A stretch of 44,283 nucleotides of DNA, from sequence record NC_073069.1; one strand, 5' to 3'. Made by a program: the position numbers and the translations under genes. The notes below the pieces were generated by a model. The model saw nothing but the letters and a program-made list of their open reading frames with translations, was not told the DNA's origin and did no database searches. This document shows, one piece after another, positions 1 to 44,283 of the stretch; the first letter of the stretch is position 1, and each line of letters opens with the position of its first letter. The stretch is from Escherichia phage B2.

Positions 1-2292
1 ATGAAAGACTTTGAACGCCTGTTTCTCGATACCGAGACATTTAGCGGGGTGGATCTGAAGAAAGTGGGCGCATACGCCTACGCGGAACACCCAACTACTG
101 AGATTATGATTTGCACATACGCCATCGACGAGGGCCGCGTGCAAACGTGGGATTGCACCGAGTCCCCCACAATGCCGCGTGAACTGCGCAAGGCGCTCCG
201 CCGGGTATCCCGCAAGAAAGCAAAAATCGTGATGGCTAACGGCCTCCTGTTTGACCGCCTGGTTATTCGCGAGAAGTGGGGCATTGACCTGCCAGTGTGC
301 CAGATCGAAGATACCATGATTATGGCCTTTCGCCACGCGCTGCCCGGTAGCCTCGATATGCAATGTCAGGTGCTGGGTGTTGACGCAGAACACGCGAAGG
401 ATAAGGCGGGCAAGGCGCTGATCAAACGATTCTGTAAGCCAACCCCTAAGACCTACAAAATCCGCCGCTACACGCGCGAGACGCACCCCGAGGAGTGGGC
501 TAAATTCCTGCGCTATGCCGCGCTGGATATCATCGCGATGAGGGAAGTCTATTGGCGCATACCGGACTGGGGTAATACGCCGAAGGAAGACGAAATCCTG
601 CTTATTGACCAGTTGATTAACGACCGCGGCTTCTATGTGGACGTTGACCTGGCGCGCGCTGCGATCAAGGCGGTACAGGCGCATAAAGAAGAGTTGAAGG
701 AAGAGGCCTGGGAGCGCTTCGGCGGTAAGCTGACCGGCAATGACTTCCTGCCAGCGCTGCGCGACCTCGCGCCTGCGTTCACAATCCACAACGCGCAGAA
801 ATCCACGCTTAACGACCTGCTGGAAGATCCAGACTTCCCCGACGAGGGCAAAGTGCTTATCGAAATGCGCCTCGGTGCGTCATCAACGGCATCGACTAAG
901 TACAATCCGCTTGTGAATGGCCTATCCGCCGATGGTCGCCGCCGTGGGTGTCTCCAGTATGGTGGCGCAAAGCGCACACTGCGTTGGGCCGGTAAAGGCT
1001 TTCAGCCTCAAAACCTGGCACGCGGCGAGTATAGTGATGACCACGAAGGGAAGATTAAACGCCGTGAAGGCGAGAGCGACGTAGCGTTTTGGGTGCGGTC
1101 GCACATGCTCACCAACGGCATCAACGCCCTGTTACGTGGGACAGCGCACTGGGCGTATGACATATCGAAGCTAACGGCCTCGACTGTTCGCGGGTGCATT
1201 ATTCCGGCGAAGGGTAAGAAGTTTGTCGTCGCGGACTACTCCAACGTGGAAGGGCGCGGCCTCGCCTGGATCGCTGGCGAGAAAACCGCGCTAATGGTAT
1301 TTAGGGCCGGTCGCGATATTTATTGTGAGACTGCCGGTAAAATGTTCGGCCTCGACCCGGAATACATTAAAGCCAACCGCAAAGACTTACGCCAGATCGG
1401 TAAGGCGTGCGAATTGGGCCTGGGCTATGGTGGTGGCGTGGCTGCGTTCTTGCAGTTCGCTAAAAACCTGGGCCTCGACCTTTATGCGATGGCTGACGTG
1501 ATGAAGGGCACATTCCCCGATCACATTTGGGCGGCGGCGAAACGTGGATATGAGTACGCCCGCATTAACGAAGCGAAGCGACCGCCGAAGCCGGGCAAGA
1601 AGGACGAGCGCCCGACTTACATACTGCCGAAAAACGTATGGCTGACGTGTGATGCGATTAAACGCATGTGGCGCGAGGCGCACCCGAAGACGGTAGCCTT
1701 TTGGGCCGAACTGGAAGATGCGGTGTTGTGTGCAATCCGCAATCCGGGCAAAGCGTACTGGGCGGGCGCGAACGTTCGCCCGGATGGAAAGAAAGCGCTC
1801 AAGATAGTCCGCACGAAGGCGAAGCATGACCCAACCTTCGACGAGGAACGCGACGACCCGAACGCCGCGGGGTGGTGGTTGAAAATTGAGTTGCCGTCGG
1901 GGCGTATTATGAGTTATCCGGGCATTGCGCTGTCAGTGACGACCGAGATCGACGAAGATACCGGCAAGAAACGCACCAGCACCCGTATTAAATATCAGGG
2001 TGAGAATCAGACGACGCGCCAGTGGGGATCCCAGTACACCTACGGCGGAAAACTCACGGAAAACATCGTGCAGGCGCTGTGTCGCGATATCCTCGCATGG
2101 TCCATGCCGGGCGTTGAAGCTGCGGGATATGAGATCGTACTGTCCGTACACGATGAACTGATAACCGAAGTGCCGGATACTGACGACTACACAACCGAGG
2201 AGTTGTGCGCGCTGATGTGCGACCTGCCGGTTTGGGCGAAAGGCTTCCCGCTTGCCGCGGAAGGCGACATTATGTACAGGTACAGAAAATAA
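1..2292 (+). CDS. DNA polymerase I (family A) with N-terminal 3'-5' exonuclease domain
   Basis: 763 aa ORF starting at window position 1; exonuclease motif LFLDTETF near N-terminus, motif B-like RQIGKACELGLGYGGG, motif C-like VHDEL. Confidence 0.9.
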   Translation: MKDFERLFLDTETFSGVDLKKVGAYAYAEHPTTEIMICTYAIDEGRVQTWDCTESPTMPRELRKALRRVSRKKAKIVMANGLLFDRLVIREKWGIDLPVCQIEDTMIMAFRHALPGSLDMQCQVLGVDAEHAKDKAGKALIKRFCKPTPKTYKIRRYTRETHPEEWAKFLRYAALDIIAMREVYWRIPDWGNTPKEDEILLIDQLINDRGFYVDVDLARAAIKAVQAHKEELKEEAWERFGGKLTGNDFLPALRDLAPAFTIHNAQKSTLNDLLEDPDFPDEGKVLIEMRLGASSTASTKYNPLVNGLSADGRRRGCLQYGGAKRTLRWAGKGFQPQNLARGEYSDDHEGKIKRREGESDVAFWVRSHMLTNGINALLRGTAHWAYDISKLTASTVRGCIIPAKGKKFVVADYSNVEGRGLAWIAGEKTALMVFRAGRDIYCETAGKMFGLDPEYIKANRKDLRQIGKACELGLGYGGGVAAFLQFAKNLGLDLYAMADVMKGTFPDHIWAAAKRGYEYARINEAKRPPKPGKKDERPTYILPKNVWLTCDAIKRMWREAHPKTVAFWAELEDAVLCAIRNPGKAYWAGANVRPDGKKALKIVRTKAKHDPTFDEERDDPNAAGWWLKIELPSGRIMSYPGIALSVTTEIDEDTGKKRTSTRIKYQGENQTTRQWGSQYTYGGKLTENIVQALCRDILAWSMPGVEAAGYEIVLSVHDELITEVPDTDDYTTEELCALMCDLPVWAKGFPLAAEGDIMYRYRK

Positions 2293-5568: not shown

Positions 5569-6033
5569 ATGAAAATTTTACAAGAAGAGAAAAATTACTG
5601 GGCCGCGCAATGCCTCGAAGCCCGCGAGCAAACGGCCAACGCGAAACAATCGGCCGAAATCTTCCGGTCAGGTTATGAAACGGAAGAAAAGCGTCGCATG
5701 GAGTTAGAGGAGCGCTTCGAACTGCTATTCGAACTGATGGGGATTATGCAGCGCACCGGATACACCACCAGCGTTGCACTAAACCGCATCACTGCCGACG
5801 GGCTGCGTGAGCATTGCAAACGGGCCGAGGAGTACGTGCGTCCGAAGGGCCGCCAGTCTTCGATCGCCCGGAAAGACCTTGTGCTCATGGCGTGGCGCAA
5901 CCCTACAAACGGCAGCATCTACCCAGACGCGCGCCCGCTTAGTGCCGAGGAATCAAAGCGCGTGCAACGCATTCTCAAAACCGGCAATAAAATCGCCCTG
6001 TATGCGATAGACACCGACCATGCAGAAGAGTGA
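5569..6033 (+). CDS. hypothetical protein
   Basis: 154 aa ORF with ggaga SD upstream; no recognised motif. Confidence 0.45.
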   Translation: MKILQEEKNYWAAQCLEAREQTANAKQSAEIFRSGYETEEKRRMELEERFELLFELMGIMQRTGYTTSVALNRITADGLREHCKRAEEYVRPKGRQSSIARKDLVLMAWRNPTNGSIYPDARPLSAEESKRVQRILKTGNKIALYAIDTDHAEE

Positions 6034-6505
6034 GCAAAAAGATAGCTGGCGCACGCCGCCAGCTTTATTTAAACCGCTGCGCCGGAAGTACCGATTCCGT
6101 TATGACATGGCGGCAAGCGACGCCAACCATCTGCTACCGCGTTACTTCACGGCAGAGCACAGCGCGCTTGAGGTGGACTGGTCAGAGTTGAAAGGGTGGA
6201 AGTGGTGCAACCCGCCGTATTCCGATCCGCTGCCGTGGGTTAAGTGCGCAGCGCACGGACGCCGGACCGTCATGCTACTGAATCAGGACACGTCGACAAA
6301 GTGGGCGCGGTTGGCCCGGAAGACTGCAAACCTGATAATTCTTCTGGACTGGCGGATCCGATTTATACATGCCGTCACCGGTGAAGTCGGGCCGAGCAAT
6401 AACAAGTGCCAGCAATTGATAATCTTTGGCGAAGCGCCACCCATCGGCAGCGCACAAATTGAAATAATGAGCGAAGGAGAACTCCTTGAATATCTTAATC
6501 GTTGA
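6020..6505 (+). CDS. phage Dam-type DNA N6-adenine methyltransferase
   Basis: WRTPPALF near N-terminus, DMAASDANH, and catalytic NPPY (WCNPPYSD); characteristic small phage Dam family. Confidence 0.8.
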   Translation: MQKSEQKDSWRTPPALFKPLRRKYRFRYDMAASDANHLLPRYFTAEHSALEVDWSELKGWKWCNPPYSDPLPWVKCAAHGRRTVMLLNQDTSTKWARLARKTANLIILLDWRIRFIHAVTGEVGPSNNKCQQLIIFGEAPPIGSAQIEIMSEGELLEYLNR

Positions 6506-6710
6506 CCGCGACCCCGCGGTCGTAGACCAAATGCAAAGAGACTACTGTATTGATCCGCGACGCAATCGGGTAGTGCGCGCGTCTCGCCCCGAATACATCC
6601 TGGGCCTTGACCTCACCGGTTGGCTTGTCATGACTCAGCGTTGCCATTTCGTGTGCAACTCCTTTACTGCGCGAAGCGCCCGTTACACCCTTATTGAGAG
6701 TTTAAAATGA
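6486..6710 (+). CDS. hypothetical protein
   Basis: 74 aa ORF from a TTG start with strong aaggaga SD 6 nt upstream; overlaps the preceding gene end. Confidence 0.3.
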   Translation: MNILIVDRDPAVVDQMQRDYCIDPRRNRVVRASRPEYILGLDLTGWLVMTQRCHFVCNSFTARSARYTLIESLK

Positions 6711-7177
6711 AATTACTGATTTGCGATTTGGATGGCGTTATTAACGGTTCAAGCGATGCGCGTGCCGACTTGGTGCCTGGCATAAAAACTAAATCCACCT
6801 TTTGGGCGAAGTGGCACAAAGCGCACGTCCGCGAAGACCTGAACATGGATATGCTGCCGCTACTGCGCATGTATAAAGAGCAAGGCTTCGAGATCGCGTA
6901 TCTGACCAACCGGCAGCGAGAATGTTGGGACACCACCGCCGAGCAATTGGAGGTCTTCCCGGTAGGCCGGTTGTTTATGCGCCACATGTTGGACGACACC
7001 CCGCCGCCTGAGTTTAAAGCGTGCGCCGTGTTCAAAATGGTATGTTACGCGGACGTGTCTGAACTGGTCATCATTGAAGATTGCGAGAAGAACATCGCGG
7101 CAATTCGTCGGGCGTGTGGTGATTTGGTCCCGAAAATTTACGCAATAAACGTTGCAAAATTCACTTGCAACCAATAG
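6707..7177 (+). CDS. HAD-superfamily hydrolase-like protein (putative phosphatase/nucleotidase)
   Basis: ATGA overlap start; HAD motif I LLICDLDGVI, YLTNR and a later acidic motif IIEDCEKN. Confidence 0.5.
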   Translation: MKLLICDLDGVINGSSDARADLVPGIKTKSTFWAKWHKAHVREDLNMDMLPLLRMYKEQGFEIAYLTNRQRECWDTTAEQLEVFPVGRLFMRHMLDDTPPPEFKACAVFKMVCYADVSELVIIEDCEKNIAAIRRACGDLVPKIYAINVAKFTCNQ

Positions 7178-17783: not shown

Positions 17784-20426
17784 TCATCGTTTGTACAGTA
17801 CACCACCCGGTTTCGTCGCTTTCACGATCTCGGCCTTCACCGCCTCGGTGATTTGCTTGCCGAACGCCTGCGCGGTACGGGGGTCCGGCCCGCTGACACT
17901 GGTATCCGTTTTACCGGTCCCAGTGTAAACGTTAGTCGTCACGACCATACCACCGCCTGCGCCAGACGCGGCAACGCCCAGTTTACCGTCCGGCCCGCGC
18001 TTCAGTGGCATGATGGCCTCGGGTCCAGCCTCACCCATCAACCCTGCGCCCTTAGCGAACGCCTGGACGCCATAACTGAAAAAGGTAGGCTGGCTTACCA
18101 CTTTCCCCGAATAGGCCGCTAGATTGCCTCCTGCGTACGCTCCGCCGTCCGCATTCTTAGTCAGGCCAGAGAAGATAGCGCCGAACAATCCGTTTTTGCC
18201 GCCGTCACCACCGAATGCGCTAACGATGGACTTGAATGCCTGCGATGTAGCCAGCTTGATTAATTCGCTCAGGATGGATTTGACCATATCCTTCGCGTTA
18301 ATCTTGCCCGTCTCGAAAAACTCGTTCATCGTGTCTTGCATAGCGCTGAACGTGAATTTAGTGAGCGACGCCATCTGCGTATATCCGTTACCCATTTCAT
18401 CCACGCTATCCTTAAGCCCGCGACTGAATCCATCCCATAGCGAGGCGTTAGCGCCGGTCTGCGCCTCCTGCACTTCCCGCAGCTTAGACACCGCCTTGTC
18501 TATATCAGTATCGTTAGCGCCAACCCTCTTCAGACGGTCGATTAGCTGCAATTCTTCGCGCAGGTTTGCCGCTTCGCGAGTGGAAAGCGCATAGCCCGCG
18601 GCGGTAGCTTTTAGTTCGGCGTTCTGGTTCTTAACGAAGGCATCGATCTGCGCGTGCGCCTTAACCTGCTTTTCTTTCGCGTCCAGCAATTTGGCTTCTT
18701 CGACGATCTGCTCGCGCACTTCCTTCACGCGTCCGAATTCTGCCATCTGCTGCTTTTCGGCCGCCGTTAGCGCTCTTTCTTTGCTCGCGGCGATTAACTG
18801 CTCATTGTCGGCGATCAGCTTGTTTAAGGCCGCTTGAGCGCGTTGCGTGCGGGTCTGCGTAGACGCGTTGGCTTCGATCTGCCTGCCGGATTCTCGAAGC
18901 TGGGCCAGTTCGCTCCGTGCGACTTCCAGCATTTTCATACCGGCATCCACGCGAACAGCCGCGGCCTTCTTCGGGGCCGGGTCTTTGTAACGCTCGTTTA
19001 CCTGCTTAACCGCCTCAGCAAGCTCTTTCTCGTCAATAACGCCGCGCTTATTCAGCAAATTGAGGCGGGCGATCTCGTCTGCGCGCTTCTTCGCGTTGGT
19101 TGCGTACTCCTTCTCGAACGCGGCGCGGTCACGGGCAGTGCGGTTGGCCTCCTCGTTCGCCTTTGCGGATTCGTCTGCGGCGCGGGCGTTGTCTCGCTCC
19201 GCACGGTTACGCAGGGTTAGCGACGCCACCACTTTTTCCTGGGCGACCAGTTCGCTGTAAAGCATGTTAATACGTGCTTTCTGCGCTTCAGTCATTACCC
19301 CACCGGCAGCGTTTACCGCTTTCATCTCGGCATAATAAGCCGTGGTCATGCGCTGCAATGACTCACGCGCTTTCATCTCTGACTCATTCGAGGACTGCGC
19401 GCGGCCCACATCCAGGATGGCATCCCACATTGATTTGGCTGCCGATGTGACGACGTTCATCGACCGCTCAAGCGTACCCATGTTGGACTTGATTTCATGG
19501 GTCATGCTGGTGAACGACGCAGCGGCTGTTTTGTTAGCCAACGCAACTGCGTCTGTCTCGCGACCCGCATCAACGAGCGACTGTACCTGCTGGATCTGCG
19601 CTTCGTTTACGACGTGATACTTATCCGCCAGCGCACGCAGTCCGCCAACGGGGTCGGTTGACAGCTTCGCCACCGCCGCTACCACATCCTCGATCGGCTG
19701 GCTGGACACCTTCGCGAAATCATTAACTACCTTAGCCAATGCGCCGAAGTCACCGCCCGCTTTCACACCCGCCGCCGCCAGCGCCTGGATTGTGTCACGC
19801 GTCTTGCGAAATGACCCGCCCATGCGCTCGGCGTTCTCGGACAGCACCAGGATCTGGTTAGCGGTGAGGCCGGAGATATTACCAGACAGCGCCAGCGTCT
19901 TATTAAGCGCCGCTACCTGGTTCTCGGCCCGTGACGTAATTGCCACGCCCACGCCTAACGTCGCCGTCACTGCCGCAAGTCCGATCCCTACTGGGCCGAG
20001 GAAGCCCGCAACATAACGCAGCGTGTTACCCAGTCCGCCAAACGCCCCAGTAAGCTGCGGTAGCTGCTGAAGCATAACGCGGTGCACCGGCATACCCATC
20101 TCAAGCGTTACCGCAATATCCTGCAACTGGAATGCGGCGTTCCGCGATGCGAATCCCAGGTTTTTGGTCGACATGCCTAATCGGCTGGCGAGTCGCTCCT
20201 GTTTCGTCATGCCATCTGCGGCACGCTGCGATTCAGTCGCTAACTTTTCCATTCCGCCCGCGGCGTCGCCAGTAACCTTTTTCGACTTGCCGAGTGTGTC
20301 GTTTAATTTCTTTACTTTCTGTTCTGTGTTCTCGGATTTCTGCGCAAATGTGTCCAGCACAGTATTAGCCGTTTTAATTTGCGCGACGTCCGCCTTGAGC
20401 GTGATGCCCGCTGCCTGATCTGCCAT
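17784..20426 (-). CDS. tail tape measure protein
   Basis: 880 aa, long alpha-helical and alanine-rich repeats, G-rich C-terminus; aggggga SD before ATG 20426. Confidence 0.85.
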   Translation of the reverse strand: MADQAAGITLKADVAQIKTANTVLDTFAQKSENTEQKVKKLNDTLGKSKKVTGDAAGGMEKLATESQRAADGMTKQERLASRLGMSTKNLGFASRNAAFQLQDIAVTLEMGMPVHRVMLQQLPQLTGAFGGLGNTLRYVAGFLGPVGIGLAAVTATLGVGVAITSRAENQVAALNKTLALSGNISGLTANQILVLSENAERMGGSFRKTRDTIQALAAAGVKAGGDFGALAKVVNDFAKVSSQPIEDVVAAVAKLSTDPVGGLRALADKYHVVNEAQIQQVQSLVDAGRETDAVALANKTAAASFTSMTHEIKSNMGTLERSMNVVTSAAKSMWDAILDVGRAQSSNESEMKARESLQRMTTAYYAEMKAVNAAGGVMTEAQKARINMLYSELVAQEKVVASLTLRNRAERDNARAADESAKANEEANRTARDRAAFEKEYATNAKKRADEIARLNLLNKRGVIDEKELAEAVKQVNERYKDPAPKKAAAVRVDAGMKMLEVARSELAQLRESGRQIEANASTQTRTQRAQAALNKLIADNEQLIAASKERALTAAEKQQMAEFGRVKEVREQIVEEAKLLDAKEKQVKAHAQIDAFVKNQNAELKATAAGYALSTREAANLREELQLIDRLKRVGANDTDIDKAVSKLREVQEAQTGANASLWDGFSRGLKDSVDEMGNGYTQMASLTKFTFSAMQDTMNEFFETGKINAKDMVKSILSELIKLATSQAFKSIVSAFGGDGGKNGLFGAIFSGLTKNADGGAYAGGNLAAYSGKVVSQPTFFSYGVQAFAKGAGLMGEAGPEAIMPLKRGPDGKLGVAASGAGGGMVVTTNVYTGTGKTDTSVSGPDPRTAQAFGKQITEAVKAEIVKATKPGGVLYKR

Positions 20427-20494
20427 TATGCAGTCCCCCTTTTTATGCAGTTGCCGTCGGTCATTGTATCAGCGAATTTAAAACAAACCTTATT

Positions 20495-20816
20495 CAGTCT
20501 CAGACGAGGGGGGCCAATAACCCCCGTCTAGTCTGAAAGACTGGGCTTTGTCCCGCCTGTCCCGATCGGCTAAAACCCGCGGCAGCACTGGCGGGGACAG
20601 GGGTGCTGTCCCGCTTTGTCCCGCCTCATTCTGTCCCGCTTTCTGTCCCGTTTGTTTTATGCAGAAAAACTGAATAGGCATTCACATTTTGGGGCGGGAC
20701 AGATCGGGACAGCACCCCTGTCCCGCTTTTAATTTATGCAATGTAGGTGGGTAAATATGCAGTTTTTAGAGGTGCGGGACGGAACGGGACAAAACGGGAC
20801 GTCCCGCCTGTCCCGT
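20495..20816. repeat. hairpin plus GTCCCGC iteron array, copy A
   Basis: First 70 nt (20495-20564) are 68/70 identical to 37292-37361; about 14 GTCCCG(C) units in both orientations up to 20816. Confidence 0.75.
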
Positions 20817-20820
20817 TCCG

Positions 20821-21146
20821 TTATGCGGGGTTCTGCCGCGCCATCTCATCCAGCGCAACGCGTTCCATTAGCTTGATATCTTTAAACGCACGTTGCGCGT
20901 TTTCGATACCGTGCATCTTAAACAGCCATTCTAAAACACCGTAGTCGATGCCGTATGCACCACCGAATCCGGTGCGCCATTGCGTGGAGCAATCTGTGAA
21001 GACTGCGACTACCTTCGCGTTGTCGGGCCATAGCGCAACGGGAGGACACACGTCTTCAGGTGTCGCACCCCATAAACTCGCGGCTAAATCTTCGGAGGGT
21101 GGCGGCGGGCCATAAAAGCGCCGCGCCGCCTCAATTAGTTTTTTTC
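20821..21146 (-). CDS. tail assembly chaperone -1 frame extension (gpT-like part of a G/GT-type fusion)
   Basis: Frame downstream of the G-like gene stays open in -1 from the slippery site through to 20821. Confidence 0.55.
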
Positions 21147-21497
21147 ACGCAACCCCATCAGTTCGAGGTAGTACGACGTATGGAACACGCCGAACGCGCG
21201 CGGGTAGTTGACCACCAGGCGGCGGACGTTCTCCGCGTTAAATTCGTCTGGAAGATTCCAGCCTTCAGCTACGTGCATGATGGCCTCGACCATAACGTTA
21301 AAGCCGTCCGGGTCATTGTCGTCATATTCCGACAACTTGCGCTCAGTATCCTGCATGGTCTGTGAGAATTCGTCGATGGGGCGGTGGCGCACGGTAAACG
21401 TCATTTTGCCTGGTTCGTTTTCGCCGGGGCGCGGGATTTCAATCGGCAGCTTAAAAGTCGGCTTAGGGTCAAGTGTAAAGAGTGGTGCTTTAGCCAT
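21135..21497 (-). CDS. tail assembly chaperone (gpG-like)
   Basis: 120 aa from ATG 21497 with ggaga SD; ends ...GLREKN at a GAAAAAAAC slippery run. Confidence 0.6.
   Translation of the reverse strand: MAKAPLFTLDPKPTFKLPIEIPRPGENEPGKMTFTVRHRPIDEFSQTMQDTERKLSEYDDNDPDGFNVMVEAIMHVAEGWNLPDEFNAENVRRLVVNYPRAFGVFHTSYYLELMGLREKN
21138..21144 (-). other. putative -1 programmed ribosomal frameshift heptamer A AAA AAC
   Basis: Slippery X XXY YYZ heptamer in the zero frame just before the G-like stop; the -1 frame continues into the 20821..21051 ORF. Confidence 0.55.
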
Positions 21498-30626: not shown

Positions 30627-32012
30627 TTAGTAGAAGTCTACAGTAGGAACAACGGCGATTGGGCGAATCACAGGGAACAGGTGCGCAACAGGATAGCCCG
30701 CTGCATCATTCATGTGGTCCACACCGGCAGTTTTATCCGGCTCGCCTTTCTTCAGGTCGTAAACCTGCTGTTCCAGACATTTCGCTAGTGTAGGGCATTT
30801 ATCCAGGTTGACAAAATACTGGCGCACGCCCTTCGAGTTGCACATCATCGTATTCATCGCGATCAATCGGTCTTTCACAGGGGGGTTAACGCTGTCGTAT
30901 TCCACCTCGAAGCCCGCATCTTCCAGTTGCGCGATATCGGACGACGACGCGTTGACCGTTTTGCGGGATTTTCCGCTGCTATCCGGGTACACGACGACCT
31001 TACCGGCAGCACAATGATCGGGGTAGCGCTCCTCGATCGCCTCAATCATAGCCGGGGTGTCAAACAGGTCCACAAATTCATCCACCGCGTGAATCTCGTC
31101 GCGGAACTCCTTGTTCTCGGTGACTCGCTGCCGTCTGACATACACAACCGCCGCCATCTTAGTGACGTTAAAGTCCATACCGATAATCAGCGTGTCGTCC
31201 GGCTGCACTTCTTCGGTGCTGGCGTTCTCCTCGCGGTTGAACATCTTGTACACCGCGCCCGACGTAAGGTTAACAAACAGGCCGTTCAGGTACGCATCAA
31301 TCAGGTTAGCCGGGTACTGACTGCGCAGCGTGTCGATAAAGTCTGCCGGTAGGTGGTGGTTGTCCGTGGTCTTCGCCCGGATCAGGCGCTTCTGGCTACC
31401 CTTCTCCACCTCGAAAATTTGATACATCGCCCGGTAGCCTTCCGGCGTGGACACGATGACAAACTGGCGGACGAAGCCCGCACGCAGACGACCGAGCAAT
31501 TTGTGGTATGCCGCCATTGCGACGTCTTGTTTCGTGGTGTCGAACTCGTCGGCAACAATCCACGCGGCGTTGACCCCGATCAGGCGGGTATAGTTCTCCA
31601 TTGATTCACAGATAACGCGGGTCCATTTGCCTTTCACCAGCACGTTATAGATCTTGTCCTGCTTATTGAACTTCCACCGGAATCCGGCCTCATCGAATGC
31701 CTTCTCCAGTTCCGGATACATGATTTTAACCAGGAGTGGAATAGTCGGTTCGGTCACGATGCCGTCATAACCGGGGTTAAGTGTCAGGAGCTGGATGACC
31801 TTACGCGCAGCTACCCACGACTTGCCGCCACCGAAGCCAGAACACAGGCCGAGGATTTTAGTCTTCGTGTCGCGCAGTAGTTCAACCTGGTGCGGCAAGC
31901 AATCAGGCTGGTAAAGGCGGACGGCCTGCGCAACGCGTGTCGGGCGTGGCGGTCGGTTACGCTTTGCGATCGCGCGTTCCAGTGCGCGGTGTTCTGCCGC
32001 ATAGTTACGCAT
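30627..32012 (-). CDS. terminase large subunit
   Basis: 461 aa; Walker A-like GLCSGFGGGKSW; ATPase then nuclease-like half; flanked by small terminase and portal. Confidence 0.85.
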   Translation of the reverse strand: MRNYAAEHRALERAIAKRNRPPRPTRVAQAVRLYQPDCLPHQVELLRDTKTKILGLCSGFGGGKSWVAARKVIQLLTLNPGYDGIVTEPTIPLLVKIMYPELEKAFDEAGFRWKFNKQDKIYNVLVKGKWTRVICESMENYTRLIGVNAAWIVADEFDTTKQDVAMAAYHKLLGRLRAGFVRQFVIVSTPEGYRAMYQIFEVEKGSQKRLIRAKTTDNHHLPADFIDTLRSQYPANLIDAYLNGLFVNLTSGAVYKMFNREENASTEEVQPDDTLIIGMDFNVTKMAAVVYVRRQRVTENKEFRDEIHAVDEFVDLFDTPAMIEAIEERYPDHCAAGKVVVYPDSSGKSRKTVNASSSDIAQLEDAGFEVEYDSVNPPVKDRLIAMNTMMCNSKGVRQYFVNLDKCPTLAKCLEQQVYDLKKGEPDKTAGVDHMNDAAGYPVAHLFPVIRPIAVVPTVDFY

Positions 32013-32563
32013 TAATCACCCTGACCTTTGCCGGTAGGTTCCACAACGACGTCGCCGTTATCATCTTCGTCGTCATCCAGAGGCACATCGTCGCGGACGC
32101 CGTGGTTGGCTTTAAGCAGGAATGTAGCGAAGCCCGCCGCGATGGTCACGCCGCCAGCTTCCATCAGGAAAGTTTTCTGCAACTCCATAGCATCCGCCAT
32201 CGCCTCGGCGAACTCCTCATGTGCGCGCGCCCAGCGATACAGGCAAGCGACGCCAACGCCTATTTCCGCGGCAAATCGACCGAAGGTTGGCATTTTGTTG
32301 CGAGGGATTACTTGCGCAGCGCCTTTATCGGAGTAGTTGACCTGCCAGGCGTCGGCGTCGGCAAAATAGCGGCGAAGCTGGTCGCAGTAAACGGATCGGT
32401 AGTCAGTAGGGCGTCCACATTTGCCGCCTTTACGGCGCTTTCCGTACTCGATTTCCGGTCCAAGATTGGTGTGCTCGGTTTGCTCGCCTGGTTTACGGCG
32501 CGGGGTTACTGCTACTCGTCCGTCCAGTTTGGCGCGTCGGCCCTTAACTTTGATTTCTGCCAT
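32012..32563 (-). CDS. terminase small subunit
   Basis: Start at ATG 32563 with aaaggg SD; HTH-like FGRFAAEIGVGVACLYRWA; acidic C-terminus; overlaps large terminase start. Confidence 0.55.
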   Translation of the reverse strand: MAEIKVKGRRAKLDGRVAVTPRRKPGEQTEHTNLGPEIEYGKRRKGGKCGRPTDYRSVYCDQLRRYFADADAWQVNYSDKGAAQVIPRNKMPTFGRFAAEIGVGVACLYRWARAHEEFAEAMADAMELQKTFLMEAGGVTIAAGFATFLLKANHGVRDDVPLDDDEDDNGDVVVEPTGKGQGD

Positions 32564-32627
32564 GATATAAGCCCTTTTGTTCATATGCGCCGACCATCGG
32601 CAACATAGGAGACGGCCCTGCCATCTA

Positions 32628-37137: not shown

Positions 37138-37291
37138 ATTAATCACGCGCATGAAAAAGTCGATCGCTATCTGCTGCAACTGCAAACTGCATTTCTCACT
37201 CACCATTCTGCAACTCGCATTGGTTGCCTAGTTCAGCGACGACCGCAATTTCCAATATGCTGCCGTGTATTATGCAATCCCGGATTTTATG

Positions 37292-37448
37292 CAGTCTCAG
37301 ACGAGGGGGGCCATTGACCCCCGTCTAGTCTGAAAGACTGGGCTTTGTCCCGCCTGTCCCGCTCCCCGCCAGGCCGCGTCATCCGTGGCGGGACGGGGGT
37401 GCTGTCCCGCTTTGTCCCGCCCCTGGTCTGTCCCGCTTTTTGTCCCGC
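37292..37448. repeat. hairpin plus GTCCCGC iteron array, copy B
   Basis: 37292-37361 is 68/70 identical to 20495-20564; followed by about 7 GTCCCGC units; lies downstream of the primase gene. Confidence 0.75.
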
Positions 37449-37498
37449 TTACTTTATGCAGTTTTATTGCATAACTATGCATTATATTCACACTACAC

Positions 37499-37614
37499 GG
37501 CAACCAATACGACCGACTAAAAGCACGCAAAATGGCAACCAATGCGCGCAGAATTTAATCATTTACCGATATGGGGATCCCCATAACGGCAACCAATGCA
37601 CGCAAAATTTAATC
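37499..37614. repeat. GGCAACCAAT direct repeats flanking a 16-bp perfect palindrome
   Basis: 30-bp repeats at 37531-37560 and 37585-37614 (27/30 identical), a third core copy at 37499-37508, palindrome tatggggatccccata at 37570-37585; overlaps the primase stop. Confidence 0.6.
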
Positions 37615-39861
37615 TTTTAAGTCTTCATCGGTCGCTGAAAGCGTGATAGGGATATCCGATTTGATGACCAAATTAGACGACCCATAGATGGCCCCGGTGT
37701 GCGGATCGGTGTAAAAACCTATCACTCCGCGCTCCACCATATCGTCGATTGCCTTCGTCGAAGTGCCACCTTTCGCGAGTCCCGCCTGGCGGACAATTGC
37801 CGATTTACTGAATCCAGTATGGTCTGGGTTATCTTCCATCAGTTTTTCCAGGGCCGCATAAAGCACTTTCTCTTTTTCGTTGCGCGGTCCGGCGGTGTTC
37901 TCTTCCTTAACTGCGGCCTTTGCCTGTTCAATAGCGAACGGTGCCAGGGCAACCGGTACGAGGTAGAGAGTCTCGTCGCGTGGCGTGGAGGCAATCGGCT
38001 TGACGTCCCATCCGGCAACCACGTCGCCGAAGTCTGGACCGGTGCTGGTGGACTGGTGCGCCTCGAACGCTTCTGACTTGCGGAGATCCACCTTCACCTT
38101 GCACTTGAGCAGGACGAAGCCGCGCGGCGCTTGCTTGATGCCGTTACGTGACTTCTCATGATACAGGTTCAATTGTCCGGGCTGGTTGTCGTCCGGCTGT
38201 TCCAGGAAGAACGCAGAATCGACAGCACCATGCAGCGCGCCGGACCCGCGTGGGGTTCTGCTGCCGTTTGCACCTTTAGCCGGGTGGTGGATGACGCCCG
38301 CACTGCCACCTGTATTTTCCGCGATGGCCTTCAGCGCTTTGACCACTTCACCCATATCGCTGGCATTGTTCTCGTCGAACGGTTTAGCCTCGGCGGACCG
38401 CAACGCAACAGTCTGGTTGAGTGAGTCGAACGCCACCAGGCCAACCGGTTCGCCGTTAGCGGTGCGGTTGATAAAGCTGATAACTTCACGCAAACCGGAC
38501 TTGCTGGTGATATCCCAGCCGCGGGATTGCAGATCGATAATGTGCAGCTTGTCCAGGTCGTGCTCATATTTAATCTGCAATGCTTCTTTACGCTGGTTGG
38601 AGGCCTCACCACCTTCCGCATCGAAATAGAAGCAATGAGACTGGACGACCTTCGCACCGCCAAACGGGATCCCCGCGGCAACCGCGCCCATCTGCCCCAG
38701 CACGTAGAAGGACTTACCGATATTCGACTCACCCGCCATATACCAGGTCGATTTAAAGTTAATCAACCCCTCGATGATCGGGTCGTGCTTACTGAACAGC
38801 GCAACCGGCTCGTTATCTAGGTCCGCATCGGTGCACACGCCGTATTCTTCGCCGTCGCCAACCGCATCAACAATATGTTCATATAAGGACTCGACTTCCT
38901 CGTCGTCCAGACCAGGCAGGATGGCGGCGATTTGTTTACGTGACATGTTGTGCGGCTCGACGTTCAGGTAGTCTGGTATCCCGAGAAGACGTAGCGCCAG
39001 GTGCTGGTGTCTATTTAGCTCCGAGCAACACTCGTTGCCGGTGTGCATACACTTGAAACGGATCTCGCCATCCTTGACCATGATAGCCGTCGACCCTTCG
39101 CCGCTGTGCAGATGTTCGTTCGGGCACGGAACTTCATAACCGCGACCGGACGATAACGGCTCGAATCCGGCCTGAAAGCACCAATCAAGAATGCCGTCAG
39201 CCACTGCGGCGTCGCCCTGGGTAAGCTCGCGGCGTACTTCCTCTTTCTCCACCCCCAGCTTGTCCGCCAGGCGGAGCAGACGCCGCACATTGGCGCGTTT
39301 GCCGTAGTGGCACTTAATAACCGATTGCTGGTGCGGCAGGTACATCAGGCGGTTTGTGTCTTTCGTGCAATCGTCGAAGTCCACATCTGACAGACCAAGT
39401 TGGTGTAATAGCGCATACTGGACACGGCCCAGGTCTTCCGCCGGGACAGGCTTGTCCGTCAACACCAGGAAACGGGCGCAACGCGTGCCGCCTTTCAGTG
39501 GGTGACGGTCGCCGGTTGTGGTGTGGAATACGTGTTCCAGACCCGCGTCGATGAAAGCCTTACGGCAGCGGCGCAAGGTGCGAGTGTCGGTGCGGTCAAT
39601 ATCAAAGAACAGGATCGAGCGGTCCACCGCGCTGGTCTTACGGCGTAGGCCGTCACTGGTATATGCCACGATGCCATCGGCCTTGCGCTTGCGGCGCGCA
39701 TACTCGGCTTTATCCTCGGTCTTGTTGATGTGCACCGATGAGATTTCTTTCGCGTCATTGATAAATTCGAAAAATTCATCAGTTGTCATCTGGAAGTTTT
39801 CCGCCCTGGCTTTTTCGCCTTTTTTAGCGGGTCTTGTTACAGCGAATTTAATTAAGCTCAT
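37609..39861 (-). CDS. primase-polymerase/helicase-like replication protein
   Basis: 750 aa; N-terminal AEP-like ILFFDIDRTD and HTTTGDRH motifs; central Walker A GESNIGKS with RecA/DnaB-like ATPase region; C-terminal region reads as a possible wHTH. Confidence 0.7.
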   Translation of the reverse strand: MSLIKFAVTRPAKKGEKARAENFQMTTDEFFEFINDAKEISSVHINKTEDKAEYARRKRKADGIVAYTSDGLRRKTSAVDRSILFFDIDRTDTRTLRRCRKAFIDAGLEHVFHTTTGDRHPLKGGTRCARFLVLTDKPVPAEDLGRVQYALLHQLGLSDVDFDDCTKDTNRLMYLPHQQSVIKCHYGKRANVRRLLRLADKLGVEKEEVRRELTQGDAAVADGILDWCFQAGFEPLSSGRGYEVPCPNEHLHSGEGSTAIMVKDGEIRFKCMHTGNECCSELNRHQHLALRLLGIPDYLNVEPHNMSRKQIAAILPGLDDEEVESLYEHIVDAVGDGEEYGVCTDADLDNEPVALFSKHDPIIEGLINFKSTWYMAGESNIGKSFYVLGQMGAVAAGIPFGGAKVVQSHCFYFDAEGGEASNQRKEALQIKYEHDLDKLHIIDLQSRGWDITSKSGLREVISFINRTANGEPVGLVAFDSLNQTVALRSAEAKPFDENNASDMGEVVKALKAIAENTGGSAGVIHHPAKGANGSRTPRGSGALHGAVDSAFFLEQPDDNQPGQLNLYHEKSRNGIKQAPRGFVLLKCKVKVDLRKSEAFEAHQSTSTGPDFGDVVAGWDVKPIASTPRDETLYLVPVALAPFAIEQAKAAVKEENTAGPRNEKEKVLYAALEKLMEDNPDHTGFSKSAIVRQAGLAKGGTSTKAIDDMVERGVIGFYTDPHTGAIYGSSNLVIKSDIPITLSATDEDLKD

Positions 39862-40603: not shown

Positions 40604-41032
40604 ATGTTTGAACAAATCGTAAACCTGATCACTCGCGGCGTAGTAGCACTGGAAATCATCGCTAAACATTATGAAACCGTTGGCGCTGCCGTTGGTAAGC
40701 AGGAAGACAAGAAGCCGTCTAAGGCCAAAAAAGAAGTCGTAGAAGATGACGACGATGAAACCGAAGACGAAAAACCGGCGAAGGGTAAAAAAGCACCTGC
40801 GAAAGGCAAAGGTAAGAAAGATGCCGACCCGCTGGCAGAGATGCGCGACGAGATCAAACAATACGCCGCGATTATCGCAGGTGGTGACGACGACGACGCG
40901 AACGACGAATTTGACGACCTGCTGGAGGCGTTCGAGATCAAATCAATCGCCAAGCTGGAAGATGACGACGTGGAAGATTTCCACAAAGATCTGAAAGAAA
41001 TCGTCGAAACTTATTTCGAATTGGAAGATTAA
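40604..41032 (+). CDS. highly acidic low-complexity protein (first rightward gene)
   Basis: ggaga SD then ATG 40604; 143 aa with D/E runs (EDDDDETEDE, GGDDDDANDEFDD) and a lysine-rich segment; the track ORF from 40424 is an R-rich upstream extension. Confidence 0.5.
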   Translation: MFEQIVNLITRGVVALEIIAKHYETVGAAVGKQEDKKPSKAKKEVVEDDDDETEDEKPAKGKKAPAKGKGKKDADPLAEMRDEIKQYAAIIAGGDDDDANDEFDDLLEAFEIKSIAKLEDDDVEDFHKDLKEIVETYFELED

Positions 41033-41040
41033 TACTATCC

Positions 41041-41068
41041 GGCCCGCTAATCTGCGGGCCTCTTTTTA
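41041..41068 (+). terminator. intrinsic terminator
   Basis: ggcccgc-taatct-gcgggcc followed by tcttttta. Confidence 0.6.
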
Positions 41069-41080
41069 GAGGACGAGACA

Positions 41081-41332
41081 ATGGCACGCTTCACGCTAAT
41101 CGAGGCGGTGGATTCCCGCGACCAGCGCCCATATTATTGGCTATTCGAACGCATCGGCAGCTTTCAGTCACGCGTTGCCGTAATAGATAAACGCCGTAAC
41201 ACCCCCGCGCAAATTAAGCGCACCACCTTTACTAATCCCGACTTTTATATTTGGGCGGATTCCAATCTGGAATATGTTCGTTTCGCCGTCGCATCCGAAG
41301 CAAAAACAATTGACCGCTGGGAGACAAAATAA
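41081..41332 (+). CDS. hypothetical protein
   Basis: 83 aa with gagga SD. Confidence 0.4.
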   Translation: MARFTLIEAVDSRDQRPYYWLFERIGSFQSRVAVIDKRRNTPAQIKRTTFTNPDFYIWADSNLEYVRFAVASEAKTIDRWETK

Positions 41333-41521
41333 ATGGCTATATTTTTCGTTTTATTTCGCTGCCGTATTACCGGCGATGAGCAACCGGAAATCGTTATGAA
41401 TCAGAACTGGAATGGCTGCTGGACTCAAGCCAGAGGTTTGGCGGCTACCATGAACGAAGCCGCGAAGCGGGCCGGTGTTAAACATGAATATTACATTGCT
41501 CAGTTTTCAAGGGTGGAATAA
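41333..41521 (+). CDS. hypothetical protein
   Basis: 62 aa ORF starting right after the upstream stop with ggaga SD. Confidence 0.3.
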   Translation: MAIFFVLFRCRITGDEQPEIVMNQNWNGCWTQARGLAATMNEAAKRAGVKHEYYIAQFSRVE

Positions 41522-42951
41522 TGGCGATTAAACCAAAACGTAAAACGCAATCCGGCAGCAATACGGAACACTCATTACTCGGGCCATCCGGTGCTAAAAA
41601 ATGGATGGGTTGCCCTGCGGCCCTGGTGGTCGAAAAAGATATCCCGAACGAATCTGGACAGGCCGCGATTAATGGTACGAGTATGCACACCGTATCTGAA
41701 GTGGTGCTAAACCGCATTATCGCCGGTGAAAAGCTAATAACAGCAAAGACGTATAAAGGATGTTACGTCGAGAATGAAGGCAAGGGGCCAGTAAAGGCGC
41801 ACCCGAAAGCACCGAAAGGCGGCGTACTGGTCAACGACGACATGGTGAAACAGTGCGACGCGTACATCGACCACTGGCGACCACTCCTCGAGGTGGCGGA
41901 GTTTGTCCAGCTTGAGATGCGCGCCGATCTGACCCGCGTCCTTCATTCAGGCGTCGAGATAGACGGTAACAAGGTTAAGACGTTCGGCACTGCCGATATG
42001 GTCATGGTCATGAAGAAGACCGATGGCACGTACATGCTGATTGTTGGCGACTTGAAGACCGGGCGACATAAGGTCGAGGCGAAAGAAAACAAACAGCTTA
42101 TGTTGTACGCGCTCGGCCTGCTGCGCAAACTGCAAACCATGTATGACATTACGACCGTGCGCCTGGTCATCTTCCAGCCGTATTGCGGCGGGGCGTCAGA
42201 GTGGGATATCTCAGTGGAAGCGCTGGAGATATTCGCGAAGTTTGCGTCCAAGCGTGCTATCGCCGCGCTCGATGCATACGCCCGCGGCAAGAAGGGACTA
42301 ACCCGCGCCGACTTCCGGCCCAGCGTCGATGCGTGCCAGTGGTGCAGATTTGCGGACCAGTGCAGCGTCCGGGCGAAGGCCGCAATCGACACGATGACGC
42401 CACCAACGGCAACCGACGAAGACCTGGGCGACGACGTGAGCGTGGCAACCGAGGAAGAGTGCGCCAACCACGACCGCAATATGGCCCGCGAAGCCCGGAA
42501 GGCTGCCCGACGTGCTAAACGGGGCAAGAAGGAATCCACCCCAGGCGCTATGAGCGCGGCGGAACTGCGCAAGGCTTATGAAGGACTTGACGCAATGCGC
42601 CAGCACATCAAAGCTATCGAATCCGCGGTATTCAAGGCGGTCATGGCGGGCGATGGCGAATCGTTGGGCCTTAAGATGGTTGCCGGTAAGGAAGGGATCC
42701 GTAAGTGGGCGGACGAGAGCGAAGTGATTGAAATATTCACGAAGGCCCGGATCAAGCGCGATGTGATGTACAAAGAAACATTGCTCAGCCCTACGGATGC
42801 CGAGAAGGTGTTGAAGGACGAAAAACCGAAAGTGTGGGCGAAGCTGTGTGCTAAAATCACGCGCGCACCCGCTAAACCGGTGTTAGCACCCATCGACGAC
42901 CCTCGCCCTGCGTGGTCGGAAGCTACTGACGAGGACTTAAGCAATGAATAA
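41521..42951 (+). CDS. PD-(D/E)XK nuclease with Cas4-like cysteine cluster (DUF2800-like)
   Basis: N-terminal Cys (MGCPAA), core TADMVMV...IVGDLKTG, C-terminal CQWCRFADQC cluster; charged C-terminal extension. Confidence 0.6.
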   Translation: MAIKPKRKTQSGSNTEHSLLGPSGAKKWMGCPAALVVEKDIPNESGQAAINGTSMHTVSEVVLNRIIAGEKLITAKTYKGCYVENEGKGPVKAHPKAPKGGVLVNDDMVKQCDAYIDHWRPLLEVAEFVQLEMRADLTRVLHSGVEIDGNKVKTFGTADMVMVMKKTDGTYMLIVGDLKTGRHKVEAKENKQLMLYALGLLRKLQTMYDITTVRLVIFQPYCGGASEWDISVEALEIFAKFASKRAIAALDAYARGKKGLTRADFRPSVDACQWCRFADQCSVRAKAAIDTMTPPTATDEDLGDDVSVATEEECANHDRNMAREARKAARRAKRGKKESTPGAMSAAELRKAYEGLDAMRQHIKAIESAVFKAVMAGDGESLGLKMVAGKEGIRKWADESEVIEIFTKARIKRDVMYKETLLSPTDAEKVLKDEKPKVWAKLCAKITRAPAKPVLAPIDDPRPAWSEATDEDLSNE

Positions 42952-43186
42952 AGTATTCGCATTCTTATTGATGATTATGCTCGGTGCGCTGGGCTTTATC
43001 CTGCATTGCGTGCAATGCGTGTTAATGGTGGCCTGGATGATTCGCCATCCGACCCGCTGGCTGGACGATGGATATAGTGCCGCCGTCGTCGACTGGGTGG
43101 AGAAGAACATCGACCGACCGCCGTTAAGCTGGATCGAGAACGTCATCAACTACGTGACCAGAAATCTTTTTAATGAAAATGCTTGA
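42944..43186 (+). CDS. small membrane protein
   Basis: ATGAATAA start/stop overlap; N-terminal hydrophobic helix FAFLLMIMLGALGFIL. Confidence 0.35.
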   Translation: MNKVFAFLLMIMLGALGFILHCVQCVLMVAWMIRHPTRWLDDGYSAAVVDWVEKNIDRPPLSWIENVINYVTRNLFNENA

Positions 43187-43276
43187 CCACCCAGGCGCAA
43201 CCAAGTAGATTAGCAACCAAGCCGAACGGGGTGGCTCACAATAACCCCGATACATGTGAAACTGAGGAATTGGAAA

Positions 43277-44059
43277 ATGGCTAAAGTCAACCTGAAAAAT
43301 GTGCGCGTATGTTTCCTTAAAATTTGGGAGCGCGATACCCCTAAACAGGATGGACAAAAACCGGCATACCGTGCAGTGATTCTTCTTGATAAAGAAGATC
43401 CGCAGGTGGACAAAGTGGAAGCGGCAGCGCGCGCAGTGCTCACCGACAAGCTGAAATCCGAGAAGAATGCTGATAAGTGGATGGACCGCCATTACGCCCA
43501 GGATTCTAAGGAATGCGCAGTTCGCGACGGTGACGAGCGCGACGAAGTGACCGAAGAATTCGAAGGCATGTTGTACATCAACGCCAAATCGTTCAAGCAG
43601 CCAAACATTCAAACGTCACTCGGCGAGAAGCAGACTGAACAAGGTCTGACTGTAGAAGGCGACGAGATCGAAGGCCAGGAGATCTACTCCGGTTGTTATT
43701 GCAATGTGTCCCTGGATATTTGGGCGTGGAACAATACCAACGGCAAGGGACTCGGTGCTGGTCTTTTAGGTCTGCGCTTCCGTGATGACGGCGAAGCCTT
43801 CGGCGGTGGCGGTTCTTCTTGCTCCGACGAAGACCTGGACAACGATGACGAAGATGAAAGCCCGCGCAAGTCCAAAAAGTCAAAACGTCGTGATGACGAC
43901 GACGATGACGACAAGCCGCGCAAGTCCAAAAAGTCCAAGCGCCGCGATGACGACGACGATGAGGAAGATGAAAAACCTCGCAAACGTCGTAAGCCACGCG
44001 ATGACGAAGATGAGGACGACGACGAAGACGAAGCGCCACGTAAACGTCGCCGCCGTTAA
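43277..44059 (+). CDS. DUF2815-like protein (putative ssDNA-binding) with acidic/basic tandem-repeat tail
   Basis: Start MAKVNLKNVRVCF typical of the family, with gagga SD; C-terminal about 3 copies of an 18-aa PRKSKKSKRRDDDDD unit. Confidence 0.6.
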   Translation: MAKVNLKNVRVCFLKIWERDTPKQDGQKPAYRAVILLDKEDPQVDKVEAAARAVLTDKLKSEKNADKWMDRHYAQDSKECAVRDGDERDEVTEEFEGMLYINAKSFKQPNIQTSLGEKQTEQGLTVEGDEIEGQEIYSGCYCNVSLDIWAWNNTNGKGLGAGLLGLRFRDDGEAFGGGGSSCSDEDLDNDDEDESPRKSKKSKRRDDDDDDDKPRKSKKSKRRDDDDDEEDEKPRKRRKPRDDEDEDDDEDEAPRKRRRR

Positions 44060-44077
44060 GGGCAAAGCCCACTATTC

Positions 44078-44102
44078 AAGCCCGCTTAATGCGGGCTTTT
44101 TA
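44078..44102 (+). terminator. intrinsic terminator
   Basis: aagcccgc-ttaat-gcgggctt followed by ttttaat. Confidence 0.65.
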
Positions 44103-44116
44103 ATAGGACAATGAAA

Positions 44117-44283
44117 ATGCGTATTAAAGCCAGCGAAGTAAAAGTCGGAATGCAAGTATGGTCCAAAATGCTGGGCGAATATTTCACAGTTGCCGAGATT
44201 CGCAACAACGGCGAGGAGATTACCCTTTCCGACGGTATCTTCTCCATGATCGGCAGTGCTGACGCCGTGGTGAGGATTAAGCA
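44117..44283 (+). CDS. hypothetical protein, truncated by the window end (or closing onto position 1 if circular)
   Basis: ORF MRIKASEVKVGMQVW... runs to the last base; joined to position 1 it would end with a TGA overlapping the polymerase ATG. Confidence 0.3.
   Translation, partial: MRIKASEVKVGMQVWSKMLGEYFTVAEIRNNGEEITLSDGIFSMIGSADAVVRIK

What the first reader, a model, noticed from the sequence alone, without database searches (positions are those of the whole stretch)
44117..44283. Window ends may be contiguous: terminal ORF closes onto the polymerase start
The ORF beginning at 44117 runs off the end of the window. If the last bases are joined to position 1, it terminates after 57 codons with a TGA overlapping the polymerase ATG (caATGA), a typical coupled gene junction. 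This suggests the window is a full circularly represented genome opened at the polymerase start.
Basis: inference. Interest (0 to 1): 0.35.

Follow-up and report, generated by a model that had tools for sequence, protein, structure and literature searches.

The report
Phage genome record cut inside a gene
The window is a complete coliphage (Dhillonvirus) genome written as a line that was opened at the DNA polymerase start codon, which splits a small conserved gene four bases before its end; this is an ordinary bookkeeping effect.

Summary
The ORF starting at 44117 runs off the window. Joined to base 1 it closes after 56 sense codons with a TGA that overlaps the polymerase ATG (ATGA).

The end-to-start junction lies uninterrupted inside about 150 related Dhillonvirus genomes, and 12 of them align through it without a gap. 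The window is a rotated reverse complement of phage SSL-2009a, with window 44283|1 matching SSL 32801|32800. The joined protein matches PHROG 10102 over all 56 positions, is 100% identical to SSL-2009a gp45, and is under purifying selection (pN/pS 0.085). The polymerase's ribosome-binding site lies at the window's end and its ATG at the window's start. GenBank record PC2 is opened at the same base and annotates the gene as join(45035..45201,1..4).

"Circular" describes the assembly, not the virion. PhageTerm analyses of three Dhillonviruses in the literature report headful packaging, with a permuted genome stated for one. The opening point is a depositor's convention, not a physical end.

One by-product: the 56-aa protein has no known function. 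It models confidently as a small β-barrel resembling EF-P domain I. In the four distant relatives whose context was read, it also sits between the SSB and polymerase genes and overlaps the polymerase start.

Nothing here is new, and interest is low.

The parts
44117..44283 (+). First 167 nt (55 codons plus 2 nt) of a conserved 56-codon gene, cut by the window end
   Evidence: phrog_10102 1-56/56, E 1.1e-42. 100% identical to SSL-2009a gp45. pN/pS 0.085 in frame against 3.2 and 1.7 in the other frames.
1..4 (+). Last base of the final Gln codon (A) plus the TGA stop of the 56-codon gene; it overlaps the polymerase ATG (ATGA)
   Evidence: The AAGCAATGAAAGAC context is kept in all full-length relatives examined apart from single synonymous or near-synonymous changes. 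PC2 annotates join(45035..45201,1..4).
44105..44108 (+). Shine-Dalgarno-like AGGA, 8 nt upstream of the 44117 ATG
   Evidence: Sequence; conserved in the 14 aligned sequences.
44078..44101 (+). GC-rich hairpin (AAGCCCGC-TTAAT-GCGGGCTT) followed by a T-run: terminator-like element between the SSB gene and the small gene
   Evidence: RNA fold -24.8 kcal/mol for 44060-44116, z = -5.1. Stem conserved; the loop differs in SO-1. The consensus scan missed it, probably because the stem extension uses up the T-run.
44272..44276 (+). GAGGA Shine-Dalgarno of the DNA polymerase gene, 7 nt before the window end and so 7 nt before the ATG at position 1
   Evidence: GTGAGGAT[T/A]AAGC[A/G]ATG is present in all 14 aligned sequences.
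1..2292 (+). Family A DNA polymerase gene (763 aa)
   Evidence: Pfam DNA_pol_A; annotation of MK728541.1 and SSL-2009a.
43277..44059 (+). Gp2.5-like / Enc34-type ssDNA-binding protein gene, the upstream neighbour of the small gene
   Evidence: Pfam Enc34_ssDNA-bd, E 1.4e-31; annotations.
32012..32584 (-). Small terminase gene. The conventional opening point of most Dhillonvirus records (e.g. SSL-2009a base 1) maps just upstream of it, at window 32639|32640
   Evidence: phrog_3064 terminase, E 3.8e-73; weak P22 gp3 and Sf6 TerS Pfam hits; whole-genome alignment.
30627..32012 (-). Large terminase gene (Terminase_6N/6C)

Best explanation
The window is a complete genome of a Dhillonvirus (HK578/SO-1-like siphophage of E. 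coli). It has the same length and coordinates as GenBank record MK728541.1, Escherichia phage CEC_Kaz_2018.

Replication and headful packaging of such phages give linear, circularly permuted, terminally redundant virion DNAs, so sequence reads assemble into a circle. The depositor wrote that circle as a line starting at the ATG of the DNA polymerase gene.

In this genus the polymerase ATG overlaps (ATGA) the stop codon of a conserved 56-codon gene. The cut therefore leaves 167 nt of that gene, together with the polymerase's own ribosome-binding site, at the far end of the record, and the last 4 nt at the beginning. The gene then drops out of the annotation: MK728541.1 has no CDS after 44059.

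Shown here: contiguity of the ends, completeness of the genome, reality of the gene, and conservation of the overlap. Inferred: translational coupling of the small gene to the polymerase, and headful packaging for this particular phage.
For: 1. A 605-nt query spanning end and start matches as one piece inside 149 phage records at 94-99% identity.
2. Twelve relatives align through the junction with no gap. The nearest indel lies 170 nt upstream, in the intergenic spacer.
3. Against SSL-2009a, window 40721-44283 matches 36367-32801 and window 1-2293 matches 32800-30508, which are exactly adjacent. SSL's own record ends map to window 32639|32640.
4. SSL-2009a annotates gp45 (171 nt) overlapping the polymerase gp44 by 4 nt.
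5. PC2 (ON184124.1, marked circular) ends in the same ...GGATTAAGCA and annotates the gene across the origin.
6. tblastn finds the protein in 153 records; wherever the listed records are annotated, it lies at the polymerase start.
7. Eight independent Logan/ENA assemblies have the gene order exonuclease, 80-aa gene, SSB, 56-aa gene, polymerase, with a 4-nt overlap.
8. Coding evidence: variable sites by codon position are 8/5/27 and pN/pS is 0.085.
9. No terminal direct repeat links the two window ends.
10. Literature: Dhillonvirus assemblies close into circles and PhageTerm reports headful packaging for Opt-212, UDS3lw and BF9. The CEC_Kaz_2018 ends were set by comparison with relatives after a 48,562-bp contig was obtained.
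Against: No reads or virion-end data for this exact sequence were available. The window differs from MK728541.1 at 9% of positions, so that paper's assembly history applies only by inference. One paper reports 10-nt 5' cos ends (ATCTTAAGGG) for Dhillonvirus EE09 from PhageTerm. That motif is absent here apart from chance-level one-mismatch hits far from the window ends, and even a cos genome would not place its ends at the polymerase ATG.
Confidence: 0.95

Rival explanations
1. The window ends are genuine physical termini (cos or short terminal repeats) that happen to lie at the polymerase start.
For: One PhageTerm-based claim of cos ends in a Dhillonvirus, EE09. MK728541.1 is labelled linear.
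Against: The end would fall 4 nt inside a conserved gene and between the polymerase's SD and its ATG. No terminal repeat is present. The EE09 cos motif is absent. Relatives opened elsewhere are continuous through this point. Three other studies report headful packaging. The source paper did not determine the ends experimentally.
Confidence: 0.02
2. The window is an incomplete genome, with sequence missing between its last and first base.
For: None beyond the ORF running off the end.
Against: Base-for-base, gap-free alignment through the junction in 12 relatives. Adjacent coordinates 32801|32800 in SSL-2009a. The joined protein covers the 56-position PHROG profile exactly. The window length of 44,283 lies within the 43.0-47.1 kb range of the genus.
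Confidence: 0.02
3. The terminal ORF is a chance open frame, and its closure onto the polymerase start is a coincidence.
For: Closure within two codons has a chance probability of about 9% (my arithmetic). There is no Pfam hit.
Against: pN/pS is 0.085 in frame against more than 1.7 out of frame. Full-length PHROG match. Homologues at 30-50% identity occupy the same slot and overlap the polymerase gene. The AF2 model is confident, at pLDDT 95.9.
Confidence: 0.01

Closest known systems
Escherichia phage PC2, GenBank ON184124.1 (Dhillonvirus)
   Same: The record is opened at the same base and ends ...GGATTAAGCA. The same small gene runs across the record origin.
   Different: PC2 is declared circular and annotates the gene as join(45035..45201,1..4). 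The record co-linear with the window (MK728541.1) is declared linear and omits the gene.
Escherichia phage SSL-2009a gp45 (YP_008550164.1) with gp44 DNA polymerase
   Same: The 56-aa protein is 100% identical, with the same 4-nt ATGA overlap onto the polymerase gene and the same SSB-terminator-small gene-polymerase order.
   Different: The SSL-2009a record is opened upstream of the small terminase gene, so the gene is intact there. The genomes are about 93-95% identical with indels.
Headful (pac) packaging phages such as P22, Sf6, SPP1 and P1
   Same: The genome maps as a circle. TerL is of the Terminase_6N/6C type and TerS has weak P22 gp3 / Sf6 similarity. PhageTerm reports headful or P1-type packaging for genus members.
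   Different: The pac site and the extent of terminal redundancy were not determined for this phage, and one genus member was reported as cos.
EF-P domain I / eIF5A N-terminal domain (KOW/SH3-like β-barrel)
   Different: No sequence similarity: 11-21% identity, no Pfam or PDB sequence hit, and Foldseek E is above 0.05. It is a stand-alone 56-aa protein in a phage replication module. I did not see the EF-P modified-loop (PGKG-type) motif in the sequence. This is a fold resemblance only, not family membership.

Membership tests
Genus Dhillonvirus (HK578/SO-1-like siphophages) | Genome-wide nucleotide similarity and synteny with genus members | tested here: met
   124 records cover at least 80% of window 1-20000 at about 90-95% identity. 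Whole-genome co-linearity with SSL-2009a: 96% of the window is covered.
Circularly permuted, headful-packaged phage genome | The linear representation closes on itself: the two ends are adjacent in independently opened relatives | tested here: met
Circularly permuted, headful-packaged phage genome | No fixed terminal repeats or cohesive-end motif at the record ends | tested here: met
   No exact terminal direct repeat of 8 nt or more. No repeat family links the two ends other than a chance-level 26-mer. The EE09 cos motif is absent.
Circularly permuted, headful-packaged phage genome | Terminase of a headful type | tested here: inconclusive
   Terminase_6N/6C and weak P22 gp3 / Sf6 TerS hits are compatible but not diagnostic. 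There is no PDB sequence hit. A published tree groups Dhillonvirus K19 TerL with Jerseyvirus and P1.
Circularly permuted, headful-packaged phage genome | Read-start distribution or restriction pattern showing permuted ends with a pac fragment | not testable with these tools
   Available only from the literature, for other genus members.
PHROG 10102 (unknown function) | Full-length match to the family profile | tested here: met
   Residues 1-56 match profile positions 1-56 of 56, E 1.1e-42, but only after the window ends are joined.
Translationally coupled overlapping gene pair (ATGA type) | The stop codon of the upstream gene overlaps the start codon of the downstream gene, and the downstream SD lies inside the upstream ORF | tested here: met
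   ATGA at 44283|1-4 and GAGGA at 44272-44276, conserved in relatives. Distant homologues overlap the polymerase gene by 8-14 nt.
Translationally coupled overlapping gene pair (ATGA type) | Downstream translation depends on upstream translation | not testable with these tools
   Needs reporter fusions or ribosome profiling.
EF-P / eIF5A family | Sequence-level family signature (Pfam EFP_N / eIF-5a) and the multi-domain architecture | tested here: not met
   No Pfam hit for any of the 31 family members. The protein has a single 56-aa domain. The similarity is at fold level only.
Ksap1 (KpAvs2-activating small protein of Dhillonviruses) | A 74-aa protein encoded between the methyltransferase and phosphatase genes | tested here: not met
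   The terminal ORF is 56 aa and lies between the SSB and polymerase genes. The positional Ksap1 equivalent in the window is 6486..6710.

The most novel reading that the evidence does not exclude
The 56-aa protein split by the record break belongs to an uncharacterised family of stand-alone β-barrels resembling EF-P domain I. In Dhillonviruses and in four distant, uncultured relatives (small protein 30-40% identical; polymerase about 65% identical in the two compared), its gene always lies between the Gp2.5/Enc34-type SSB gene and the family A polymerase gene and overlaps the polymerase start. It could be a previously unrecognised replisome accessory subunit, for example an adaptor between the SSB and the polymerase or to a host factor.
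Probability: 0.2. Interest if true: 0.4.

Novelty: already known. Interest (0 to 1): 0.08.

Why it matters
The practical value is small. It shows that a 'linear, complete genome' record can hide a real gene, and can separate a gene from its ribosome-binding site, simply through the choice of opening point. Annotation pipelines should test origin-spanning ORFs on phage genomes that assemble as circles. It reveals no new biology about genome ends. The only mildly interesting by-product is that the hidden gene encodes a conserved, confidently modelled small β-barrel of unknown function that stays tightly linked to the phage DNA polymerase gene.

Tried and rejected
- **Ksap1.** I asked whether the terminal ORF is Ksap1, the Avs2 trigger of Dhillonviruses. 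It is not: Ksap1 is 74 aa and lies between the methyltransferase and phosphatase genes.
- **EE09 cos motif.** ATCTTAAGGG gave only chance-level one-mismatch hits, far from the window ends.
- **Exact-protein look-ups.** The window's polymerase and SSB are not on record, so no assembly of this exact phage could be inspected. The neighbouring 92-aa endonuclease did give eight related assemblies.
- **First AF2 run.** With 10 near-identical sequences the model was poor (pLDDT 56) and its Foldseek hits were not usable. It was replaced by a 31-sequence alignment.
- **Sequence annotation of the small protein.** Pfam, PDB sequence and profile searches found nothing. The TerL sequence search against PDB also found nothing.
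- **Distant homologues.** IMG/VR returned only Dhillonviruses. The four scans that ran on genome and metagenome contigs found nothing. tblastn of distant homologues against GenBank phages only hit Dhillonviruses again. Their context was finally obtained through the look-up of encoding contigs.
- **Repetitive hits.** The long repetitive proteins P0013, P0015 and P0019 from the HMMER search were set aside, on reading their sequences, as probable repeat artefacts; this was not tested.
- **Artificial mutation.** I considered that the window might be an artificially mutated copy of MK728541.1. At 221 of 269 differing sites both alleles occur in natural relatives, and third-position bias holds even in the unannotated terminal ORF. 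So both sequences carry natural variation.

Full report
**Observation.** The last 167 bases of the window (44117..44283) are an open frame starting at an ATG, and they end with two spare bases, CA. The window begins ATGAAAGAC.... Joining the end to the start gives ...AAG CAA TGA. The ORF then has 56 sense codons plus a stop, and the TGA shares its TG with the polymerase ATG. The description is accurate. Closure within two codons would happen by chance about 9% of the time (my arithmetic), so the closure alone proves little. The weight comes from comparison with other genomes.

**What the window is.** Megablast of window 1-20000 against GenBank phages finds 162 records, almost all Escherichia phages of the genus Dhillonvirus, and 124 of them cover at least 80% of the query at about 90-95% identity. 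One record, MK728541.1 (Escherichia phage CEC_Kaz_2018, also NC_073070.1), has exactly the window's length of 44,283 bp. It also has the same start and the same ORF coordinates. However, it differs at 4,030 positions with no indel at all, and it carries 70 Ns.

**Contiguity of the ends.**
- A 605-nt query made of the last 245 and first 360 bases of the window matches as a single piece inside 149 records, at 99.3% identity in SSL-2009a.
- In a MAFFT alignment of the junction region with 12 relatives, no sequence has a gap at or near the junction. The closest indel is 170 nt upstream, in the spacer before the small gene.
- Over the whole genome the window is a rotated reverse complement of SSL-2009a. 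Window 40721-44283 pairs with SSL 36367-32801 and window 1-2293 with SSL 32800-30508, so window bases 44283 and 1 correspond to adjacent SSL bases. SSL's own record ends correspond to window 32639|32640, just upstream of the small terminase gene. Both records are therefore different openings of the same circle, and nothing is missing at the junction.
- Eight independent assemblies from SRA runs and ENA metagenomes show the same gene order: exonuclease, an 80-aa gene, SSB, a 56-aa gene, then the polymerase (763 aa in seven of them, 1,062 aa in L023). The last two genes overlap by 4 nt.

**Precedent.** SSL-2009a annotates the small gene as gp45 (171 nt), overlapping the polymerase gp44 by 4 nt. 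Phage PC2 (ON184124.1, declared circular) is opened at the very same base: its record ends ...GGATTAAGCA, as the window does. It annotates the gene as a CDS running from 45035 across the origin to base 4. This is exactly the reading the first-stage reader proposed. In MK728541.1 the gene is simply missing from the annotation; the last CDS ends at 44059.

**The ORF is a real gene.**
- After joining, the protein matches phrog_10102 over positions 1-56 of 56 (E 1.1e-42).
- tblastn finds it in 153 phage records, all with at least 80% coverage. Wherever the listed records are annotated, it lies at the polymerase start.
- Among 15 distinct nucleotide versions, the variable sites fall 8/5/27 by codon position. 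pN/pS is 0.085 in frame, against 3.2 and 1.7 in the other two frames.
- The in-frame ATG at 44111 is out of frame or mutated in most relatives, so 44117, preceded by AGGA at 44105-44108, is the start.
- The polymerase's own Shine-Dalgarno (GAGGA, 44272-44276) sits at the window's end, 7 nt before the ATG at position 1, and is conserved. The record break therefore separates a start codon from its ribosome-binding site.
- Upstream, a conserved GC hairpin with a T-run (44078-44101; -24.8 kcal/mol, z -5.1) follows the SSB gene.

**Why the genome closes.**
[quoted passage not shown] It also reports that PhageTerm predicted headful packaging for Opt-212.
- UDS3lw (PMC13348001) and BF9 (PMC10059673) are likewise reported as headful/pac; BF9 is described as permuted.
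- PMC10783031 groups the TerL of Dhillonvirus K19 with Jerseyvirus and P1.
- The window's TerL carries Terminase_6N/6C, and its TerS has weak similarity to P22 gp3 and Sf6 TerS.
- One dissenting report gives EE09 a 10-nt cos end. That motif is not in the window.
- The two window ends share no terminal repeat.
- For CEC_Kaz_2018 the paper says a 48,562-bp Canu contig was reduced to 44,283 bp, and that the ends were set by comparison with related genomes. The difference of about 4.3 kb is what an over-assembled circle would give; this last point is my inference.

**By-product: the small protein.**
- It has no Pfam or PDB sequence hit.
- An exhaustive HMMER search and a profile search found small homologues of 45-69 aa at 30-50% identity. 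They share the motif G(M/D)RVWS..L.E.FTV.
- In four such distant cases the gene again lies between an Enc34-type SSB gene and a family A polymerase gene, overlapping the polymerase start by 8-14 nt. The two polymerases compared (L042, L044) are about 65% identical to the window's.
- In the sister groups, Jerseyvirus lacks a gene in this slot and Cornellvirus has a Mom-like gene there.
- With the diverse alignment, AlphaFold2 gives a confident six/seven-stranded β-barrel (pLDDT 95.9).
- This is a fold resemblance only. The function is unknown, and a role as a replisome adaptor is speculation based on the conserved linkage.

**Verdict.** The phenomenon is a known, ordinary consequence of writing a circularly assembling phage genome as a line. 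It is not a novel feature.

Noticed in passing
window 1-44283 versus L001 (MK728541.1 1-44283): The window and the GenBank record of phage CEC_Kaz_2018 have the same length, start and ORF coordinates and no indel at all. Yet they differ at 4,030 positions (9.1%), mostly at third codon positions, and the record carries 70 Ns, some in runs of 3-4. At 221 of 269 differing sites near the junction, both alleles occur in natural relatives. Every other relative at 93-96% identity shows indels. One sequence was probably built as a reference-guided consensus on the coordinates of the other.
   Followed up: partly
window 20549-20726 and 37346-37448 (direct repeat 20490-20664 / 37287-37461): The 8-mer TGTCCCGC occurs 13 times against 2.0±1.3 expected. 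Twelve copies lie in two clusters that are also a ~175-nt direct repeat pair (86-97% identity). The clusters are conserved at syntenic positions in SSL-2009a and MK728541.1. They could be iterons or regulator-binding arrays.
   Followed up: partly
window 43842-44033 (3' part of the SSB gene 43277..44059): The Gp2.5/Enc34-type SSB ends in a 54-nt tandem repeat (about 2.3-3 copies). It encodes alternating basic (PRKSKKSKRR) and acidic (DDDDDD/E) blocks, and relatives carry 3-nt indels here. This is an unusual mixed-charge C-terminal tail compared with the purely acidic tail of T7 gp2.5 (comparison from my own knowledge).
   Followed up: no
window 6486-6710 (+): A 74-aa ORF between the Dam-type methyltransferase gene (6020..6505) and a 156-aa phosphatase-like gene (6707..7177). 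It is the positional equivalent of Ksap1, the small protein that activates the Klebsiella Avs2 defence against Dhillonviruses (PMC11564622). The sequences were not compared.
   Followed up: no
L004 (phage Ioannina) 1501-1623; L005 (phage Zumzum) 1501-1669: Two natural variants of the small gene. Ioannina has a 16-codon internal deletion giving a 40-aa product, with the ATGA overlap kept. Zumzum has a frameshift that ends the ORF 22 nt before the polymerase ATG. The full-length protein may therefore be dispensable, or these may be sequencing errors.
   Followed up: partly
L006 (Sodalis phage SO-1) 1668-3168; L023 1813-5001: Some relatives have interrupted polymerase genes. SO-1 is annotated with a group I intron carrying an ORF, L023 encodes a 1,062-aa polymerase, and Pubbukkers is annotated as intein-containing. 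The window's polymerase (763 aa) is uninterrupted.
   Followed up: no
L001 annotation (MK728541.1), e.g. 37609-39861 and 21135-21497: Several product names in the co-linear GenBank record look wrong. For example, the 750-aa protein called 'DNA recombination nuclease inhibitor gamma' is annotated as replicative helicase-primase in SSL-2009a, and a tail-chaperone-region ORF is noted as 'Terminase small subunit'.
   Followed up: no
window 2292 (polymerase stop / next gene start); L021 and L027 4813-5004: SSL-2009a and two Logan assemblies carry an extra 63-aa gene between the polymerase gene and the VRR-NUC-like endonuclease gene. In the window the endonuclease gene starts at the polymerase stop (2292), so the extra gene is absent.
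   Followed up: no
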